Virus record (IMG/VR): IMGVR_UViG_3300023301_001182 | Span: 28,164-92,163 of that record | DNA length: 64,000 nt | DNA from: a virus | Reading direction: 5' to 3' (one strand) | The notes under the pieces: model-generated | Database searches by the model: none | Told to the model about the DNA's origin: nothing | What the model saw: the letters and a program-made list of their open reading frames with translations, nothing else | Shown: piece by piece, positions 10,100-36,274 of the stretch | Position numbering within the stretch: the stretch's first letter is position 1 | Layout: every line of letters begins with the position of its first letter | Program-made: the position numbers and the translations under genes

Positions 10100-10773
10100 A
10101 GTTTTAATATATTACCATTACTACTAAGTACACCAAATTTACCATCAGTTACTACACTTCCATTACTAAAAATAGTATCTTGAATTGATAATTTCATTGT
10201 ACCAGCATTAATAATATCTTTATTATTATGAATATGACCAAATAACATAAGTTTAGGTTGTACCACTAACATTCTTTTCATTAATGCACTACAACCACAT
10301 CTTTCAATATAATTATTAAAATCATGAGAGTTATCAAGTATTCCTTTAGGTGGACCATGTACTACTACTATATCAGAATCATCTGGTATAGTCTTCCATA
10401 GTTTATCTAATTTATCCCTTTTTCTCATAAAAGACCAATTACCAAAAGTAGGAGTATATGGACTTCCCCATATTTTAATACCTTCTATTGTTATATCTTC
10501 ATTTTCTAAATATATTATATTTAATTCTTTACATAGTTCTCTAAATTTCTTTGACCATTTATAAGCCAAAGTATCATGATTACCTGAAATAAGAACTTTA
10601 TATTTAATATCTAATTTAGAATACCAATATAGAAAATTATGAGATTCACCTTCATTTTTATATACATCAAATGAATGACTATAATCTCCTGAATGTATTA
10701 TCATATCTATATCATTAGGTATTTTTAGTAATTCATGATATCCATGAGTGTCAGAAATATGATAAATTATCAT
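10096..10773 (-). CDS. Calcineurin-like metallophosphoesterase
   Basis: SDTH, HSGD, GNHD, VHGPP, FGHIH motifs. Confidence 0.9.
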   Translation of the reverse strand: MIIYHISDTHGYHELLKIPNDIDMIIHSGDYSHSFDVYKNEGESHNFLYWYSKLDIKYKVLISGNHDTLAYKWSKKFRELCKELNIIYLENEDITIEGIKIWGSPYTPTFGNWSFMRKRDKLDKLWKTIPDDSDIVVVHGPPKGILDNSHDFNNYIERCGCSALMKRMLVVQPKLMLFGHIHNNKDIINAGTMKLSIQDTIFSNGSVVTDGKFGVLSSNGNILKL

Positions 10774-29087: not shown

Positions 29088-29718
29088 ATTTATTATCTGT
29101 TAAAAACTTATTCATTGAAGTTCCTCTAAATTTTAACAAAGAATCTACATTCTTTGGTATAATATCACATATAACTAAAGAATGGTTTCCCCAAGAATTA
29201 TAAGTTGTATCTATAGGCATAACTATATTCTTGTTTACAAGTTCCATTAAAAAATACAGAGGGTCAGTTATAATTCTATCTTTAGCTCTTAAATCTATAA
29301 AAAATTGTTTATGATTAAAAACACATGGTTTATACCAAATCATTCTTAAAAAGTTTAATAATACTAAATTATTATAATATTTACTTTCACTTATTAAATC
29401 ATATCTAATATATGTTTCTTTAAATTTAGTTACAATTTTACATGGTGTTATCATATTAATAATATCTACCATAGCTTTTGTAGCTGCTAAAGAGTTAATA
29501 TTGGTTCTAAAATCACTAATATAAATTTGCTTAATTGATGGTCCTTTATAAGTATAGTGTATTAAACAATTATATTTATTTATCGTTCCATCAGTATAAT
29601 TAACTATAGTTGGGTACATTAAGCTATACCAACAAGCACTATTTTTAACCTTTACTAACTGTTTTTCTCTGCCAATATCTATATGATAATGACAACTATA
29701 ATGACTCTCTGTTCTCAT
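29080..29718 (-). CDS. Hypothetical protein
   Basis: 212-aa ORF in the operon. Confidence 0.6.
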   Translation of the reverse strand: MRTESHYSCHYHIDIGREKQLVKVKNSACWYSLMYPTIVNYTDGTINKYNCLIHYTYKGPSIKQIYISDFRTNINSLAATKAMVDIINMITPCKIVTKFKETYIRYDLISESKYYNNLVLLNFLRMIWYKPCVFNHKQFFIDLRAKDRIITDPLYFLMELVNKNIVMPIDTTYNSWGNHSLVICDIIPKNVDSLLKFRGTSMNKFLTDNKYG

Positions 29719-29732
29719 TTTTTAAATTTTAA

Positions 29733-30062
29733 TTATTCTTCTTTTGTAAAGTTTTTATCTTTAAACCTATCATCTAGGTCTTTTCTAAATAAATACATAT
29801 AAGATAAGAACATTGCATTACACATTATATGTCCTACGTGGTCTAAACCACTTTCCTTATCTTTATCTACTCCATCTGAAAAGGAATTTATATGTCGTTG
29901 CATGCTATCTAAAGTTTCAGAATATTTTAGACCTTTTCTCCAATTATGGTCATCATATTTTTTAGCACCAAACATTAGTACTCTAACTAAAGGTTCTAAT
30001 GCTTTCCAACTAACTAACCCCCATCTTAATTTCCCTTCATTCTTTCTTTCTCCTAATTCCAT
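29733..30062 (-). CDS. dATP/dGTP diphosphohydrolase-like protein (DUF5664-type)
   Basis: GKLRWGL, FGAKKYDDHNWRKG, DKESGLDHVGHIMCN. Confidence 0.8.
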   Translation of the reverse strand: MELGERKNEGKLRWGLVSWKALEPLVRVLMFGAKKYDDHNWRKGLKYSETLDSMQRHINSFSDGVDKDKESGLDHVGHIMCNAMFLSYMYLFRKDLDDRFKDKNFTKEE

Positions 30063-30064
30063 AT

Positions 30065-33000
30065 TTACCTTCCTGTTGTAGACTCAATGAAATTATAAAC
30101 CTCTTTTATGTTAGCATTATCATAAGGTAAAGGTAGTTCTCTAAAAAAGTTTACAGCTCCATCAAAGAATAGTGGACAAACTGTGCCACCACCACCACTT
30201 CTACCACCAAGTATTTCTAAAAACCTTATATTATCTCTAAAAAAGGTTATATCATATCCTTGGTACTCTCTTATCTCGTGTCTAAACGGACTAAATAGTC
30301 CTATTATAACATTAGCATCCCGTTGAGTTAATTTGCAATCGCCAAGACCATCTAATGAAGGTTTTAATCGACCTACCTTCATATTCTCGACTGATTCTTG
30401 TGCACTTGCTTGTTGTTGAATAACAACTGGAATGTAGTTATATTTATTCCTGAGTCTTAAAAGATAATCTGAAGACAATTTAACAATAGAAGCATGTAAG
30501 CTCATTTTGTGTCCATTTTCTTCTTCTGTAGAAATTAAACCTACATGGTCAATAAAGACCATAACATACTCTTCTGGATCATTAGGTTCATAATAATCAT
30601 CAATCTCTGTTAATGTACCTTTGATATTGATAGTTTTTTTGTACTGTGTCCCATTGGCTTGTGCATAGGAACGGACAAATTTATAAATACCTGTAGGATT
30701 TCTAATATCATCAATGAACTCTACTATTTCTTCAATCTTCTTGAAATATGGTTCATATTTTGCTATTAACTCTAAAATTTTAATATCTAATATTTTATCT
30801 GCTTTAGTACTTCTAAGGTCAGTAGGAGGAATTCTTACCCCTTCTTTAACATATATAATGTTAGAGAATGCTGATAACATTTTCTCCTCCTTAGACATCT
30901 CTAAAGTAAAATAAAATATCTTCAATCTAATGTTTAAAGATTTATCAATTACTTGTTGAATAGTATTATACAAAAATAGCCAATCAGCTATTTGAGTTTT
31001 CAATTTTGTTATTTCTAACGATTACTAAAATATTTCTTATTTTCAAAAAATTTTTTAAGTTCTATACCAAATTCATCAACTCCTCTACGTGGAGCATATA
31101 AACGCCAGTAACTTCCTGTGTAATTAGTAGTAGAATCTCTAACTCTATATACTTGTTTGTTTATATCATTACAAAACATACCAACTAAATTATCAAGTGA
31201 CATTACAGTATTAAAAAACTCTTCATATGTGGCTTTAGGATAATAATTTAAACAGATCCTGTATAAATCTCCCATAGATCTATTGCAATCCTTTCCACAT
31301 TGTTTTCTGTTACTTTTAAGATGATATGTTTTATTACTGTATATATATCTTGATAATAATAATCTTACAAAATTCTTAAAAACTTTAGAATAAATTTTAT
31401 GTTTTGTAATGCCAGCTTTTGAAAGGTATAATATTCCTCTTCCTCTTAATTTTATTTCTATTTTATTAAATTTTTGTTTCATATTTTAGAAATTTAGAAA
31501 GTTAAGTCATTTCTACTTAACTCTATAATTTAATATCAATTTTTAATGAATCAAATAGTTTATCAATATAAGCAGCATCATATTTAGTATCCTTTGTACT
31601 TCTACCATAGTTAAATGTAACAGAATTTACATGACCTGGTATAATTTTACTAGCCCATATAGATATAGATGGCTTTTGACATTTCTCATAAAAGCTATAA
31701 AATATTACTTTATTAATACCACCACATACTCTTGCTCTGAATTTAGTTTCATATAAAGCTTGTAATACCATCTTTTCAGTTGCTCCTTTTTGTTTATAAT
31801 ATTTAAACAAATCATCAAAGCTTCTTCTATCATAGATCCCTTTGTCTTTTTTAAATAGAGTACTTCTAAAATACCTCTTATGATTTACTTTATTTAATAA
31901 ATCTTTTTTTAACTCCTTTAAATTCATCTTTAATTAATTTTTATTTTTATAGTTCGGACTATCTCATCAACCTATCTATGTATTACACATTTACAGTCAT
32001 AATCATGATGTCCTTTTAATGCATCATTATAACATTCTGTACAACATTGTATACCTTCTGTTATAATTGTTGCAATATTATCACAATCTGTACATAGTAT
32101 AGGTTGCCCATTGTTAGTCTCTACGTCCTTTTGAATTTTTGATATTGTATTATCTATAGTTGATTGAAATCTATCATCACAACTATATCCAGCTTTATAA
32201 TAAGCTAAACCTTTCATAATATTTTCAATATTTCTTTTATTCAACTGTGACACGGGATTGCCTTCTTTTTTTTCAGTTTCTACACCGTTTTGTAAAGCAA
32301 GTCTAACTCCTACTGAAACTCCTAGTTTATAATCATCCCACCATTTAGGACTTCCTAAAAATTTAGTTAATCGTTTTACTTCTTTCTCAAGTGATAGCAT
32401 AGGATTGCTTTCTGTTTTTTCCATTATAAATCATCTCTAGTTAAGTTCTTAATATACATCTGTAAATCTCCATTAGGATAACCTACCCTTCTTGCAAAGG
32501 TATGTTTGTATTCAAATCCTAATGTTTTTAGATTGGATCTTAATAAGTGCTCATTTGGAGATACTATTACAAAGACAGCTGTCTGGCCTCTACCATATGT
32601 ATAATCTACTTCTTTATTAATAAGCATTTCCATAGTAAGCCGTTTTAACTTAGCTTTAAATTCATCTAAAGTTGTGTCATCTCCTACATTATTTAATTGA
32701 CATAATGCACAGCATGCTGTTGTTGTTTTTTCCATTATAATGTTTTTTTAAAAAAGGGTTTCCCCGTTAGCTAATTATTTTTAACAAATACTTTTTTAAC
32801 CAAGACTTAGAAGTAAATTCTCCAAGTTTAATTAATTGTTCAATTGTTAAAATTCCTTTTTTCTTTCTTTTTAATATTATTTCTTTTGCTATTCCATCTT
32901 GTTTAAATCTTGCAACATAGCCATCTCTATTTCTGATTTGATATTTAGTAAAATATGTTGCAAAATATTGGAAGCCATAACCATAACCTGTTGGTATTGC

Positions 33001-34775
33001 TACACAAGATATTAATATAAAATATTTTGCTAAATTTTCAACATATAATTTGGATGTTACATTTATTGAAAATGTTACTTTCTGAGCTGCATGTAATACT
33101 TTAGCCACTCTTTCTATAGCTTTAGGTGTACACAGTGATGCAAAACTTGATACTTGATCTAAGTAACAATGTTTACAATTACCAATTGCGTCTTGGTAAA
33201 AAATTGTACTATAATCTGAAAGATACACTTTATATACATCTGTGTCACACATATTTGGAATACAGTCTTCTAGTCTTATATTTATCATTTTTTCTTAATT
33301 AACCCCCATTTCTGGGATTCTGAGTTCAATTACATATTACTATGCAAAGGGGCAAAATCTACCTACTTTCGTTTATATTCCACATAAGACGTAACTCTTA
33401 TATGCGTTTATGATAAATAGTATATATGGTAGGTCTATCCTCAATAACTTTTAAGATATTGGTTATTTTCCACGAGTACTGTACCTGCTTATACTTCTTA
33501 ATACTATTTACTTTAACTGCTATATATTTCTATATAGACTGGACTATATCTTCATCTACTTGAGATGGCTTCCATTTCCAATACCATTAACTTGTATTGT
33601 ACGTGCTCTATTGCACTAGTCTCTGAACGTTACTATTTCTAGTCTTCGCTGCTGATTGTCTTATATAAAAAAGACACTATATTAGTGTCTTAATTATACT
33701 TAGAGTTTCCAGCAATTAAAAAGCTAATCATCTAGATGTCACCATCTAGCGTAGCAATTAAATTGTTATTAATAAATATTGTTTTTTAAATTTTTGTTGT
33801 ACTTTTATTGCATAACTTATACTAGGTCTGTGTGTTTTAAAATATTCAGCACATTCTTTTAAAGAATTAAATTCCATAATTAATTCTCTTGTACTATAAT
33901 CTAATACTTGGACTTTCTTATATAAATATTCCATATTTTTAGTATCTTTTTTATAAGGAGATAATATTTCTTTATAATCATATGACCATAAATAATTACC
34001 TGCTTTTTTATAAGTACCATTAATATATCTACATATAGATGATTTAGAAATATCACACTCAGATGAAGCTTCATTAAGGCTATTATATTTACATATATAT
34101 TCTCCATTTAAAGAGTACTTATATATAACTTTAGTAGCTAATATTATTTCACCTATTTTAATTTTGTATTTCCTTGTATTAGATTGTTTAAGTCTAGACT
34201 CTTTAGGAAGGATATTTCTATCTACTTCTAAAGTAATATTATATAAAGGTTTTAATATATCTATATAAAATTGTTCTCTACTTATTAACTTATTTTCTTC
34301 ACATTTTTCTAATATATAAAAATTAAAGTCATTCTCTGTATTATTATTCCAAGAATTTTGTAATAATATATTACAATGCTTTAATTTTTTTAATGTATAA
34401 AAATGATTATATAACCTAGTTCTAATGTTTTTAGAACTACCTATATATTGTTTACCATTTTTAATATTTATTATGCAGTAAATACCACTGCAGTTATAAT
34501 CTTTTGTTATTTTCTTCATAATTTATATATTTATACAAATATACGAAATTAAATTCAATAATCCTAATTTATAACTGCTAATTTTATAACTTTATTTATT
34601 ATAACTAATTACTATTCGCTGTAATTAAATAATATTTACCTTGCTCAATGCCAGGTAATTCATTTTCAAACCGAGGTAACCCCCATGGTATACAATTAAT
34701 TTGCCCATTAAGTAACCTCTGTCTCTTTTCTATGATATTGTCATAGACTCTTGTATATAAACTTGTTTCTTTCAT
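30065..34775 (-). CDS. dnaB: DnaB-like replicative helicase in three exons (34775..34611, 33369..33361, 31000..30065; about 369 aa spliced)
   Basis: Exon 1 ...IPWGLPRFENELPGIEQGKYYLITANS, micro-exon AAA GTA GGT (KVG), exon 3 KTQIADW...FTLEMS...FIDHV...VIQQQ...QRDANVIIGL. Joining restores Walker A ANSKVGKT in frame. Confidence 0.9.
31015..31482 (-). CDS. Intron cargo ORF 5: basic hypothetical protein, paralog of 31523..31927
   Basis: RSMGDL...FCNDINKQVY; bracketed by an AUUUCUAA/UUAGAAAU stem. Confidence 0.7.
   Translation of the reverse strand: MKQKFNKIEIKLRGRGILYLSKAGITKHKIYSKVFKNFVRLLLSRYIYSNKTYHLKSNRKQCGKDCNRSMGDLYRICLNYYPKATYEEFFNTVMSLDNLVGMFCNDINKQVYRVRDSTTNYTGSYWRLYAPRRGVDEFGIELKKFFENKKYFSNR
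31523..31927 (-). CDS. Intron cargo ORF 4: basic hypothetical protein
   Basis: RSFDDL...VCGGINKVIF; bracketed by a CUAUAA/UUAUAG stem directly after the S element. Confidence 0.7.
   Translation of the reverse strand: MNLKELKKDLLNKVNHKRYFRSTLFKKDKGIYDRRSFDDLFKYYKQKGATEKMVLQALYETKFRARVCGGINKVIFYSFYEKCQKPSISIWASKIIPGHVNSVTFNYGRSTKDTKYDAAYIDKLFDSLKIDIKL
31972..32424 (-). CDS. Intron cargo ORF 3, overlapping the Q, R and P8 core elements; Cys-rich C-terminus
   Basis: 150-aa open frame coupled to the upstream ORF by TAATG; CTDC...CCTEC...CKC. Confidence 0.55.
   Translation of the reverse strand: MEKTESNPMLSLEKEVKRLTKFLGSPKWWDDYKLGVSVGVRLALQNGVETEKKEGNPVSQLNKRNIENIMKGLAYYKAGYSCDDRFQSTIDNTISKIQKDVETNNGQPILCTDCDNIATIITEGIQCCTECYNDALKGHHDYDCKCVIHR
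32424..32735 (-). CDS. Intron cargo ORF 2: hypothetical protein in the P5 loop
   Basis: 103 aa; starts just after the P5 5' strand; LKTLGFEY...LQMYIK segment is only weakly GNAT-like. Confidence 0.65.
   Translation of the reverse strand: MEKTTTACCALCQLNNVGDDTTLDEFKAKLKRLTMEMLINKEVDYTYGRGQTAVFVIVSPNEHLLRSNLKTLGFEYKHTFARRVGYPNGDLQMYIKNLTRDDL
32767..33288 (-). CDS. Intron cargo ORF 1: hypothetical protein in a stem between P3 and P4
   Basis: 173 aa; bracketed by GGUUAAUUA (33304-33296) and UAAUUAGCU (32777-32769). Confidence 0.7.
   Translation of the reverse strand: MINIRLEDCIPNMCDTDVYKVYLSDYSTIFYQDAIGNCKHCYLDQVSSFASLCTPKAIERVAKVLHAAQKVTFSINVTSKLYVENLAKYFILISCVAIPTGYGYGFQYFATYFTKYQIRNRDGYVARFKQDGIAKEIILKRKKKGILTIEQLIKLGEFTSKSWLKKYLLKIIS
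33361..33369 (-). other. 9-nt micro-exon of dnaB encoding K-V-G of Walker A
   Basis: AAAGTAGGT, preceded by the terminal G of intron 1 (33370) and ending in the U of the intron 2 5' splice site. Confidence 0.87.
33758..34519 (-). CDS. Intron-encoded GIY-YIG homing endonuclease with NUMOD1-like C-terminal repeats
   Basis: SGIYCIINIKNGKQYIGSS, REQFYID, YN; two SL(N/K)E(A/C)(S/A)E helix-turn-helix-type repeats. Confidence 0.92.
   Translation of the reverse strand: MKKITKDYNCSGIYCIINIKNGKQYIGSSKNIRTRLYNHFYTLKKLKHCNILLQNSWNNNTENDFNFYILEKCEENKLISREQFYIDILKPLYNITLEVDRNILPKESRLKQSNTRKYKIKIGEIILATKVIYKYSLNGEYICKYNSLNEASSECDISKSSICRYINGTYKKAGNYLWSYDYKEILSPYKKDTKNMEYLYKKVQVLDYSTRELIMEFNSLKECAEYFKTHRPSISYAIKVQQKFKKQYLLITI
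34536..34567 (-). promoter_or_regulatory. Bacteroidota-type promoter inside dnaB intron 1
   Basis: TTAGGA then TATATTTG, 24 nt start-to-start, upstream of the GIY-YIG ATG. Confidence 0.65.
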
Positions 34776-34777
34776 AT

Positions 34778-35386
34778 TTAATTTAATTTTGAAGTCCATT
34801 CATCTCTACTAGGTAATCCTATCTCCTCTATATAAGCAGATAATCTGGATGACTCTTCACGATTGTTCTCTTGTTTAAATATAAAATAATCAGCACGTTG
34901 TAAGAATCTATAATCTCCATGTAAGCTGTCAATATAAATATCAACTGCTTTTAGGATATCATCGAATGTATATTTAGAGTTTTCTTTCATCCATCTTGTA
35001 AGTTTAATTTCACATGACTTTGGACTACCCATAGAACCAGCTTTTAACCCTTTCCATTTGTCTCTAAATAATTCAATTCTACCATCAATCTCTTGATTAA
35101 TAGTTCTTTGTGATCTTTTAGTAGTCTTCTTAGAAGGCTCTAAAGCATCAGGTATTTCTACTGTTAAAAACTCTAATAGTTCTACAGATTTCTCCCTTAA
35201 TATATATTTTGTCTTTTCTTCATCTGTTATAATTTTTATTAGTTTTTCTCTTTGTAATTTTTGTAAGTCTATATTAGCTATATTAACTTCTTTCTCTTCA
35301 AATAAGTTATATAGAAATAAGAGATCTTCTACAGAAATATTGAAATCATTTAGTACAGTAAAATTTAGTACTAAGTTTTTTCTCAT
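34778..35386 (-). CDS. Hypothetical protein, possible replication initiator or helicase loader
   Basis: Directly upstream of dnaB exon 1. The function is inferred from position only. Confidence 0.45.
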   Translation of the reverse strand: MRKNLVLNFTVLNDFNISVEDLLFLYNLFEEKEVNIANIDLQKLQREKLIKIITDEEKTKYILREKSVELLEFLTVEIPDALEPSKKTTKRSQRTINQEIDGRIELFRDKWKGLKAGSMGSPKSCEIKLTRWMKENSKYTFDDILKAVDIYIDSLHGDYRFLQRADYFIFKQENNREESSRLSAYIEEIGLPSRDEWTSKLN

Positions 35387-35543
35387 TCAATATATTTAAA
35401 ATTCATTTAATTTTTCGTCTATTAATGATTCAGATAATTCTTTATCGATCATACCATCACCTTTACAAAATCTGCATAGTTTAAGATACTTTCCTTTAAT
35501 TACTTCTTCACCAACCCCTAGACAATTGGGGCATTCTACTAGT

Positions 35544-35972
35544 TTACTCATTATTTAATATTTCTAAAGATTCATATAAAGCACTCTCTAATGCAGATTC
35601 ATAATTAAGAAACTTTCTCATAGGATTATCAGTAATATCAAATGAAATTAAAGGTACATATGTACCATCTAATTCAACATCTGTACCTATATAATGTATT
35701 TCATAATCCCATTCAATACCTTCTTCATCATCAATAAAATCATCTATTTTGATATGAATATTATGAACTTTTCTTAACCATCTTTGTAATAATGATTGAC
35801 TATGTCTTAATAACCATGTATCTGGGCTTAATAATAACGTATCTCTTTGAACATTAAACATCTCAGATCTATCTTCTAAATCAAAAATGTGATTAAAGAC
35901 ATCAAGTTCTATATTAAGTCCCTTTTTCTTAGCTAATTTAGCTGTGTCAAATGTTATTAATTGTTCTTTCAT
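35544..35972 (-). CDS. Hypothetical phage protein
   Basis: ITFDTAKLAKKKG, QSLLQRWLRKVHNIHI and YESALE segments. Confidence 0.65.
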   Translation of the reverse strand: MKEQLITFDTAKLAKKKGLNIELDVFNHIFDLEDRSEMFNVQRDTLLLSPDTWLLRHSQSLLQRWLRKVHNIHIKIDDFIDDEEGIEWDYEIHYIGTDVELDGTYVPLISFDITDNPMRKFLNYESALESALYESLEILNNE

Positions 35973-35974
35973 AA

Positions 35975-36274
35975 TTATAAATAGATTAAAAATACCATAG
36001 TAATATTTGGATAAAACCTCTTTAATTCATTAGTTAAATGTTGATTAAATATTGGTTTCTCTTCTTCTGTTTTTAAACCCTCTATTTCATAAAAATGATT
36101 TAAAGAATTAAACTTTCCATAAAGTTCTATACTTCCTTCATTAGTATATACTCCAACTGTTCCATCGTTCATTTTAATAGTAATTTCTGTATTTGGATAT
36201 AAATCTAATAATGTAGGTGGTTTTTCTGGTACTATAACTAATGTACTTAATTTATTTACACTTGGTATTAACAT
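35975..36274 (-). CDS. Hypothetical protein
   Basis: 99-aa ORF in the operon. Confidence 0.55.
   Translation of the reverse strand: MLIPSVNKLSTLVIVPEKPPTLLDLYPNTEITIKMNDGTVGVYTNEGSIELYGKFNSLNHFYEIEGLKTEEEKPIFNQHLTNELKRFYPNITMVFLIYL

What the first reader, a model, noticed from the sequence alone, without database searches (positions are those of the whole stretch)
33361..33369. Helicase Walker A assembled from three exons through a 9-nt micro-exon between tandem introns
Seen: exon 1 ends ...ACA GCG AAT AGT (34611), the micro-exon is AAA GTA GGT, and exon 3 starts AAA ACT CAA (31000), giving T-A-N-S-K-V-G-K-T-Q. Both donors end in U and both introns end in G. Known: closely spaced phage introns have precedent (Staphylococcus phage Twort orf142). 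Inference: the same 9 nt must act as 3' exon of intron 1 and 5' exon of intron 2, so splicing may be ordered. Skipping the micro-exon would stay in frame (ANS-KTQ) and give a helicase with a broken P-loop, possibly an inhibitory isoform.
Basis: partly seen in the sequence, partly recalled or inferred. Interest (0 to 1): 0.85.

Follow-up and report, generated by a model that had tools for sequence, protein, structure and literature searches.

The report
Nine-base exon between two phage introns
In a crAss-like phage, the only replicative helicase gene is cut by two self-splicing introns nine bases apart, so three codons of the ATP-binding loop stand alone as a tiny exon; related phages show this is real and recurrent, though splicing itself was not observed.

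Summary
On the minus strand, exon 1 ends at 34611 (..ITANS), AAAGTAGGT lies at 33369-33361, and exon 3 starts at 31000 (KTQ..). All 24 uninterrupted homologs read ANS-K[V/I]G-KTQ there. K and G are invariant and align to the Walker A of solved DnaB helicases.

Both flanking sequences are group I introns. Intron 1 (1241 nt) scores 81.5 bits in Rfam and carries a GIY-YIG endonuclease. Intron 2 (2360 nt) gets no Rfam hit, but relatives at the same site do, and its helices P2, P3, P7 and P8 covary.

Related phages carry no intron, intron 2 alone, or both. One pair is 95-96% identical in its flanks and differs only by intron 1. At least 10 other viral contigs share the tandem layout.

This is the genome's only DnaB-type gene. 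Its exons are under purifying selection (dN/dS 0.07-0.24).

Splicing was not seen directly, because no RNA data were available. I found no base-pairing reason for ordered splicing. The idea of an inhibitory skipped isoform has no supporting evidence.

This is an extreme member of a known kind: exons of 23 nt in phage Twort and 34 nt in Coxiella, and mini-exons in mitochondria. The same scan had already noted this stretch in another window of the same genome.

The parts
34611..34775 (-). Helicase exon 1 (55 codons, MKETS...YYLITANS). It ends in U and supplies A-N-S of the Walker A loop.
33370..34610 (-). Intron 1, a group I intron of 1241 nt with P7.1/P7.2 (IA-like). It ends in G at 33370.
   Evidence: Rfam RF00028 scores 81.5 bits at 33520-33781. 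The ORF-less relative L002 scores 99.5 bits. 27 of 66 consensus pairs show compensatory changes across 7 copies. Presence/absence against L042 fixes the boundaries.
33758..34519 (-). GIY-YIG homing endonuclease ORF (253 aa), between the 5' splice site and the internal guide sequence of intron 1.
   Evidence: Pfam GIY-YIG 42.6 bits and NUMOD1 37.1 bits, both above cut-off. Homologs sit in intron 1 of L004, L020, L028 and L032.
33752..33755 (-). Internal guide GCUA of intron 1. It pairs with exon-1 UAGU (U.G at the splice site).
   Evidence: The motif GCTACG is present just before P2 in all 7 copies. It is invariant, so there is no covariation; the pairing is read from sequence.
33361..33369 (-). 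Micro-exon AAAGTAGGT = K-V-G, the centre of the Walker A loop.
   Evidence: Variants in other double-intron contigs are AAAGTGGGT, AAAGTTGGT and AAAATTGGT; all encode K-[V/I]-G.
31001..33360 (-). Intron 2, a group I intron of 2360 nt with five ORFs in peripheral loops or overlapping the core. It ends in G at 31001.
   Evidence: Homologous introns sit at the same site in 13 intron-2-only loci. Rfam scores 67.1 bits in L013 and 30.9 bits in L025. There is no Rfam hit in the window itself.
33286..33360 (-). 5' domain of intron 2. U-run 33357-33354 can pair with exon-3 AAAA (P10). Guide GCC 33353-33351 pairs with micro-exon GGU (P1). Then come a P2 hairpin with a GUAA loop, the P3 5' strand CUCA, and a GAAA-loop hairpin.
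   Evidence: 97% of cells are paired, 8 pairs change on both sides, and 0 of 500 shuffles reach this. Model R1 scores 91.3 bits.
32758..32770 (-). Intron 2 J3/4-P4 (CUAACGGGGAAAC).
   Evidence: Conserved in 14 copies. P4 ACGGGG/UCCCGU is paired in all of them.
32251..32259 (-). Intron 2 P4' strand (AAUCCCGUG), followed by the P6 5' strand.
   Evidence: P6 in the window (UGUC/GACG) differs on both strands from the CCGU/ACGG of relatives (read).
32101..32124 (-). Intron 2 J6/7-P7 (GUAGAGACUA), P3' (UGGG) and P8 5' strand (CAACCU).
   Evidence: P7's fifth pair is A-U, G-C or U-A across copies. P3 is CUCA/UGGG, CUCA/UGAG, UUCC/GGAA, CUCU/GGAG or CAUC/GAUG. P8 has three pair types at three positions.
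31954..31973 (-). Intron 2 P8 3' strand (AGGUUG), J8/7 and P7' (GAUGAGAUAGUCC).
30065..31000 (-). Helicase exon 3 (311 codons plus stop). It starts with K-T of the Walker A loop.
   Evidence: dN/dS is 0.07-0.24 among double-intron alleles.

Best explanation
The phage's single DnaB-type replicative helicase gene is interrupted, inside the codons of its Walker A loop, by two unrelated self-splicing group I introns 9 nt apart. Intron 1 lies between the S and K codons and carries a GIY-YIG homing endonuclease. Intron 2 lies between the G and K codons and carries five ORFs.

Each intron is removed on its own. Intron 1 recognises exon 1 through UAGU/GCUA and ends at its terminal G. Intron 2 recognises the last 3-4 nt of the micro-exon (GGU/GCC, with U.G at the splice site), aligns exon 3 through AAAA/UUUU, and ends at its terminal G.

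The mature mRNA therefore keeps the 9-nt exon and encodes a complete 369-aa helicase.

The layout arose by repeated invasion of a highly conserved DNA target, a typical homing-endonuclease hot spot. Intron 1 was gained or lost several times, always in alleles that already held intron 2.

Shown: the sequence anatomy, homology, covariation, presence/absence alleles and purifying selection. Inferred: that both introns actually splice, that they act independently, and that intron 1 tends to go first because it is transcribed about 2.4 kb earlier.
For: 1. KVG is required. It is present in all 24 uninterrupted homologs; K57 and G59 are invariant and V58 is at least 90% conserved. It aligns to SMG/SVG of GARP-SMG-KT in solved DnaB structures.
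2. Intron 1 scores 81.5 bits in Rfam and 99.5 bits in the ORF-less copy L002. 27 of 66 pairs are compensatory.
3. Intron 2 has the same 5' and 3' ends and core as introns at this site in 13 intron-2-only loci. Rfam hits relatives. P2, the GAAA hairpin, P3, P7 and P8 covary. The independent model R1 scores 91.3 bits.
4. Natural alleles exist with no intron, with intron 2 only, and with both. L032 and L042 are 95-96% identical in their flanks and differ by exactly the 952-nt intron 1.
5. The tandem layout occurs in at least 10 other IMG/VR contigs whose helicase exon 3 is 68-84% identical to the window's where it was fetched, plus a 99.6% identical independent contig. The micro-exon varies only at the Val wobble base or V to I.
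6. The 92-kb genome has only this helicase gene. Exon 3 has dN/dS 0.07-0.24 at dS of about 1 or more among double-intron alleles.
7. The spliced product aligns end to end with uninterrupted homologs, and most of these alignments have no gap.
Against: - There is no RNA evidence. No RNA run holding this sequence was listed, so splicing, its order and its accuracy are unobserved.
- Rfam does not detect intron 2 in the window. Its P5, P6, P8, P9 and P9.2 loops hold long coding inserts, and a frame runs through the core.
- In the window, intron 2's P1 has only 3 standard pairs, because the Val codon is GUA.
- A degenerate second copy of the P4'/P7 elements lies just upstream and could promote misfolding.
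- Intron 1's P1 is invariant, so it has no covariation support, and its P10 is weak or absent.
- The splice sites are set by comparison and by the U/G rules, not by cDNA.
Confidence: 0.85

Rival explanations
1. Splicing is obligatorily ordered or cooperative. One intron cannot act until the other is gone, because the 9-nt exon cannot serve two folded ribozymes at once or because the introns compete for it.
For: The two active sites would have to lie within 9 nt of each other, so simultaneous docking looks sterically unlikely (inference from group I architecture). RNAalifold paired intron 1's guide CUAC with GU[A/G]G inside the micro-exon; this could compete with intron 1's own P1 or with intron 2's P1. 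Intron 1 is never found without intron 2.
Against: No pairing requires an order. Intron 2's P1 needs only GGU. Intron 1 shows no conserved P10. Intron-2-only alleles prove that intron 2 works on the product of intron 1 removal. The alifold pairing arose in an alignment that lacked exon 1, the expected partner of that guide.
Confidence: 0.2
2. Exon skipping (exon 1 joined directly to exon 3) is a substantial, possibly regulated product. It would give a helicase subunit without the P-loop glycine that could poison hexamers.
For: Skipping is in frame. Exon skipping by tandem group I introns is documented for Twort orf142, Coxiella 23S rRNA and phage SIOphi (PMC10136302, PMC11878797). Both 3' exons start with AAA, so intron 1's weak P10 would not tell them apart.
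Against: The two introns share no significant similarity, so a Twort-like hybrid ribozyme is unlikely. Exon 1's end (AGU) pairs with intron 2's guide GCC by only 2 bp. The distal 3' splice site is 2.4 kb away. There is no evidence for any function of such a product.
Confidence: 0.07
3. The helicase gene in this phage is decaying. One or both introns no longer splice, and the 9-mer is a relic.
For: Intron 2 is heavily loaded with ORFs and is not recognised by Rfam in the window. Its P1 is short. A duplicated core element exists.
Against: All three exons are intact and in frame. This is the only helicase gene in the genome. There is strong purifying selection among double-intron alleles. All tested core pairings are kept in the window, P6 through changes on both strands.
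Confidence: 0.04
4. The 9-mer is a chance match and the true junctions lie elsewhere, for example one composite 3.6-kb intervening sequence.
For: A KVG-coding 9-mer is expected 0.46 times in the spacer.
Against: It sits exactly at the junction of two independently defined introns. The same 9 nt are contiguous with exon 1 in intron-2-only alleles. Without it the invariant K and G of the Walker A loop would be missing.
Confidence: 0.02

Closest known systems
Staphylococcus phage Twort orf142, introns 2 and 3 flanking a 23-nt exon (Landthaler and Shub 1999, as summarised in PMC10136302)
   Same: Tandem self-splicing group I introns in one phage gene with a very short internal exon that must serve as 3' exon of one intron and 5' exon of the next.
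   Different: The exon here is 9 nt, not 23. The two introns are unrelated in sequence, whereas the Twort pair is highly similar. Splicing and skipping were shown by RT-PCR in Twort and not here.
Coxiella burnetii 23S rRNA, two group I introns flanking a 34-nt exon (Hicks et al. 2011, cited in PMC10136302)
   Same: Two dissimilar group I introns close together in an essential, highly conserved gene.
   Different: That is an rRNA gene in a bacterium with a longer exon. Skipping was observed there.
Mini-exons of mitochondrial genes between group I or II introns (PMC10352661; PMC12308204, which cites a single-nucleotide exon in placozoan cox1)
   Same: Exons shorter than about 4 codons, found by noticing missing conserved residues. 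This shows that self-splicing introns tolerate such spacing.
   Different: Those are organellar, often depend on protein helpers, and are not in phages. Here the micro-exon lies in a phage replication gene and recurs across a viral lineage.
Bastillevirinae phage introns (PMC11878797)
   Same: cDNA revealed a small extra exon between two introns in the phiNIT1 ribonucleotide reductase gene, and exon skipping in a phage SIOphi gene.
   Different: The size of that small exon is not given in the text I could read. Host, phage group and gene all differ.
T4 td / I-TevI-type phage group I introns with a GIY-YIG endonuclease
   Same: Intron 1 has a group I core with P7.1/P7.2 plus a GIY-YIG and NUMOD endonuclease ORF in a peripheral position.
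   Different: The ORF lies between the 5' splice site and the guide sequence. The cleavage site and target are unknown.
Introns of crAss-like phages (Yutin et al. 2021, PMC7886860) and the helicase of phage cr111_1 (NC_055880.1)
   Same: Same order of phages. cr111_1 has a GIY-YIG intron inside the same Walker A codons, after AAGGT.
   Different: That paper lists introns in the MCP, PolB, primase and ATPase genes, not in DnaB. cr111_1 has one intron at a site 5 nt away, and its record annotates only the 3' part of the helicase.

Membership tests
Group I intron (Rfam RF00028): intron 1 | Covariance-model match to the catalytic core at or above the gathering score (50 bits) | tested here: met
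   81.5 bits, E 2.9e-21, at 33520-33781(-). 99.5 bits for the ORF-less copy in L002.
Group I intron: intron 1 | 5' exon ends in U paired with G of an internal guide (P1); intron ends in G | tested here: met
   UAGU/GCUA with U.G. The guide is conserved in 7 of 7 copies. Terminal G at 33370. The pairing is invariant, so covariation does not support it.
Group I intron: intron 2 | Covariance-model match to the catalytic core at or above the gathering score | tested here: inconclusive
   No hit in the window. 67.1 bits for the intron at the same site in L013. 30.9 bits, below threshold, in L025. Long coding inserts in loops explain the miss but do not replace a hit.
Group I intron: intron 2 | Core helices P3, P4, P6, P7 and P8 present and supported by compensatory changes | tested here: met
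   P3, P7 and P8 have several pair types. P4 is paired in 14 of 14 copies. P6 is changed on both strands in the window. P2 and the GAAA hairpin: 8 pairs change on both sides, and 0 of 500 shuffles reach this.
Group I intron: intron 2 | U.G at the 5' splice site, P10 with the 3' exon, terminal G | tested here: met
   GGU/GCC in 9 of 9 copies. UUUU/AAAA in the window (read). G at 31001.
Group I introns (both) | Self-splicing with guanosine and Mg2+ | not testable with these tools
   No RNA run was listed. This needs in vitro transcription or RT-PCR.
GIY-YIG homing endonuclease (I-TevI-like) | GIY-YIG catalytic domain plus a NUMOD-type DNA-binding module | tested here: met
   PF01541 42.6 bits and PF07453 37.1 bits, both above cut-off. 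Activity and target were not tested.
DnaB-like replicative helicase (PF03796) | Match to DnaB_C above cut-off | tested here: inconclusive
   Uninterrupted homologs pass (33.2 and 39.0 bits against a cut-off of 27). The window's exon 3 alone gives no Pfam hit and only a weak match to PHROG 19. The joined product could not be submitted to the profile tools; locally it aligns at 68-74% identity to those homologs.
DnaB-like replicative helicase | Walker A [A/G]xxxxGK[S/T] | tested here: met
   A-N-S-K-V-G-K-T is formed only if the micro-exon is included. It aligns to GARPSMGKT and AARPSVGKT of 4a1f and 2vye.
Twort-type exon skipping by a hybrid of two similar introns | The two flanking introns are highly similar | tested here: not met
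   blastn of intron 1 against intron 2 finds no significant match (best E 0.03, AT-rich 14-17-mers).

The most novel reading that the evidence does not exclude
Intron 1 is a parasite of intron 2. Its GIY-YIG endonuclease would home to a target made of the micro-exon plus the first bases of intron 2, or would spread only by co-conversion with it. This would explain why intron 1 has been gained or lost at least four times, always in alleles that carry intron 2, and never in any of the 28 distinct intron-less alleles sampled. The 9-nt exon would then be the footprint of one selfish element targeting another.
Probability: 0.2. Interest if true: 0.7.

Novelty: new member of a known kind. Interest (0 to 1): 0.5.

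Why it matters
It is the shortest internal exon between group I introns that I could find for a phage or bacterium (9 nt against 23 and 34 nt). That claim is limited to the library I searched. The exon sits in an essential catalytic motif and recurs across a lineage of crAss-like phages.

Natural controls exist: alleles with no intron, with one intron, and with both. Together they offer a ready system to ask how close two self-splicing ribozymes can sit, whether they splice in order, and how often they skip.

There is also a practical point. 86 of the 120 nearest protein clusters start at or within a few residues of K-T-Q, the first residues after intron 2. The RefSeq record of cr111_1 annotates only part of the gene. 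So this helicase appears to be widely mis-annotated.

Tried and rejected
- RNA evidence: the look-up of sequencing runs listed no RNA holder for 30065-34800, so read laying could not be used.
I used the search for related loci instead.
- Rfam over 6.5 kb missed even intron 1. Narrow windows were needed. Two narrow searches over intron 2's core in the window found nothing.
- An exact search of metagenome contigs for the window's spliced junction (35-mer) found nothing. This neither supports nor refutes splicing.
Of the 80 loci returned, 79 were chance matches and one was real (L125). It is not a census.
- A pattern for an intron-1-only allele matched 10 viral contigs. None encodes the helicase.
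- phmmer of a full-length homolog against PDB found nothing. The profile search did.
- An extended P1 for intron 2 (AAAG with CUUU) was rejected because those bases belong to P2.
- Rfam's own P1 assignment for intron 1 in L002 lies wholly inside the intron. I prefer UAGU/GCUA.
- An intein was rejected because stop codons follow both exon ends. A group II intron was rejected because there is no reverse transcriptase ORF and the core is group I.
Full report
**What is in the sequence.** The gene runs on the minus strand.
- Exon 1 (34775-34611) ends ACA GCG AAT AGT, and a stop follows two codons later.
- The 9-mer AAAGTAGGT is at 33369-33361, preceded by G at 33370.
- Exon 3 starts AAA ACT CAA at 31000, preceded by G at 31001.
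- Joining the three pieces gives 1110 nt, a 369-aa protein with ..YYLITANS-KVG-KTQIADW...

**Is KVG needed?** A search with exon 3 found 1816 relatives.
- Of the 120 closest clusters, 24 are full length (368-381 aa), and every one reads ANS/ANQ/ASS-K[V/I]G-KTQ.
- In their alignment A54, K57, G59 and K60 are invariant, and V58 and T61 are at least 90% conserved.
- Full-length homologs pass Pfam DnaB_C.
- Their profile aligns this stretch to the Walker A loops GARPSMGKT and AARPSVGKT of solved DnaB helicases 4a1f and 2vye.
- The closest annotated phages are crAss-like (Crassvirales) replicative helicases.
- The Walker A loop is therefore split A-N-S | K-V-G | K-T, and the micro-exon holds its invariant glycine.

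**Intron 1 (34610-33370, 1241 nt).**
- Rfam's group I model scores 81.5 bits at 33520-33781. Its fast filters missed this when 6.5 kb were searched.
- The intron carries a 253-aa GIY-YIG plus NUMOD1 endonuclease ORF.
- Seven copies from different contigs align well. RNAalifold finds P2 to P9.2, with 27 of 66 pairs keeping pairing through changes on both sides.
- An ORF-less 302-nt copy in L002 scores 99.5 bits.
- All seven have GCUACG just before P2. GCUA pairs with the exon-1 end UAGU, with U.G at the splice site.
- All seven end ..GAAUAU(3-4 nt)G immediately before the micro-exon, except L004, which has GAACAU.
- P10 with the micro-exon is 2 bp in the window and absent in four of the seven.

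**Intron 2 (33360-31001, 2360 nt).** Rfam finds nothing here, so the case rests on relatives.
- Thirteen loci have an intron at exactly this site with exon 1 running straight through KVG. Their introns start A[G/A]A[A/U]UUUGCCCC.. and end ..AACAAAAUUG, like the window's.
- The intron at this site in L013 scores 67.1 bits, with P1 including the exon. The intron in L025 scores 30.9 bits.
- Anchored alignment of 14 copies locates the window's core: J3/4-P4 at 32770-32758, P4' at 32259-32251, P7-P3'-P8 at 32124-32101, and P8'-J8/7-P7' at 31973-31954.
- Pair counts show compensatory change in P3, P7 and P8:
  - P3: CUCA/UGGG, CUCA/UGAG, UUCC/GGAA, CUCU/GGAG, CAUC/GAUG.
  - P7: the fifth pair is A-U, G-C or U-A.
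  - P8: three pair types at three positions.
- P6 in the window differs from relatives on both strands yet still pairs.
- In the 5' domain 97% of cells pair, 8 pairs change on both sides, and no shuffle or slid register comes close.
- A model built from eight relatives without the window finds one site in the 64-kb window, 33286-33372, at 91.3 bits.
- P1 is GGU/GCC in all nine copies. A fourth pair is lost in the window because Val is GUA.
- The U-run before the guide can pair with exon 3's AAAA (P10).

**Comparative proof of the micro-exon.** Among 70 related viral loci there are alleles with a 9-nt gap (no intron), with intron 2 only, and with both introns.
- The double-intron loci are L002/3, L004, L020/49, L021/24, L028, L032 and the window.
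- L032 and L042 are 95-96% identical on both sides and differ by exactly the 952 nt between AGT and AAAGTGGGT.
- A junction pattern finds nine viral contigs, one of them new (L075).
- L125 is an independent assembly 99.6% identical to the window with the same junctions.
- The micro-exon is AAAGTAGGT, AAAGTGGGT, AAAGTTGGT or AAAATTGGT, always K-[V/I]-G. KIG also occurs in uninterrupted homologs.

**Is the gene in use?**
- The 92-kb genome (estimated 91% complete) has no other DnaB-type gene.
- Exon 3 of double-intron alleles has dN/dS 0.07-0.24 at dS of about 1 or more.
- The protein has therefore stayed under selection in lineages that carry the arrangement. This requires accurate removal of both introns and retention of the 9 nt. 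That last step is an inference; no RNA data could be found.

**Order and skipping.**
- Nothing in the pairings forces an order.
- Intron-2-only alleles are the natural equivalent of the intermediate left after intron 1 removal.
- Two folded cores probably cannot dock on sites 9 nt apart at once. Intron 1 is complete about 2.4 kb of transcription before intron 2. Sequential splicing with intron 1 first is therefore my expectation (inference).
- Skipping is in frame, but nothing here favours it. The introns are dissimilar, and exon 1's end matches intron 2's guide by 2 bp only.
- Published cases of skipping involve 23-34-nt exons (PMC10136302), and a phage SIOphi gene also skips an exon (PMC11878797).

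**Distribution.**
- On a tree of exon-3 proteins (49 distinct rows), double-intron alleles need at least four changes on well-supported branches.
- They always sit next to intron-2-only alleles, for example the window with L001 and L032 with L042.
- No intron-1-only allele was seen in the loci, in the 120 protein clusters, or in a pattern scan.
- Three explanations remain open: intron 1's endonuclease prefers targets that include intron 2's start; co-conversion keeps the two together; or the sampling is biased by relatedness.

**Comparison with what is known.**
- Tandem group I introns with short exons are known in Twort (23 nt) and Coxiella (34 nt).
- Mitochondrial genes regularly have exons under four codons, down to one nucleotide (PMC10352661, PMC12308204).
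- A small exon between two introns was seen in phage phiNIT1 (PMC11878797).
- Introns are known to be dense in some crAss-like phages, but DnaB is not among the genes listed (PMC7886860).
- I found no description of this arrangement.
- It is best filed as an extreme new member of a known kind.

Noticed in passing
window 31001-33360 (-): Intron 2's five ORFs (173, 103, 150, 134 and 155 aa; no Pfam or PHROG hit) each sit in a terminal loop or run through the core. Homologs of the 103-, 173- and 155-aa ORFs also occur outside the helicase gene: L025 at 10375-10671; L047, L048 and L064; L031, L034, L039, L040, L047 and L065. Most of these phages have no helicase intron. The ORFs look like small mobile or cargo genes rather than intron-specific ones.
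   Followed up: partly
window 32262-32412 (-): A degenerate second copy of the P4' and J6/7-P7 elements (GCAAUCCUAUG ... ACGGUGUAGAAACU) lies just upstream of the functional ones, inside the 150-aa frame. The protein repeats NP.xSL...VET. The interior has diverged (alignment z about 2.6).
   Followed up: partly
L031 4292-6001; L054 4930-6001; L070 4935-6001; L090 (NC_055880.1 cr111_1) 762-1663: A third insertion site lies inside the same nine bases: introns placed after AAGGT, inside the Val codon. The 9 nt coding K-V-G thus hold three intron sites (after S, inside V, after G). The cr111_1 record annotates only the 3' part of the helicase.
   Followed up: partly
L054 5041-5790 versus window 33758-34519: The GIY-YIG genes are 68% identical in DNA, but the ribozymes around them are unrelated apart from the universal J8/7-P7' motif. 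The endonuclease gene has moved between different introns 5 nt apart.
   Followed up: partly
L021 3530-3750: In this copy of intron 1 the GIY-YIG gene is absent, and a small Cys-rich ORF (about 70 aa) sits in the P9.1 loop instead. The window has a 110-nt non-coding extension there.
   Followed up: no
L061, L063, L066 (helicase exon 3): Further interruptions of about 1-1.1 kb later in the same helicase gene (after exon-3 residues ~104, ~200 and ~222). Some relatives therefore carry three or more intervening sequences in this gene.
   Followed up: no
protein clusters P0001-P0120: 86 of the 120 nearest clusters are gene calls that start at or within a few residues of K-T-Q, often using the intron's last TTG/ATG as the start. 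Ten more start further in. The interrupted form is the majority among close relatives and is routinely called as a truncated hypothetical protein.
   Followed up: yes
window 29500-36000: Method note: Rfam with default filters on 6.5 kb returned nothing, although an 81.5-bit group I match lies inside. AT-rich phage introns need narrow search windows.
   Followed up: yes
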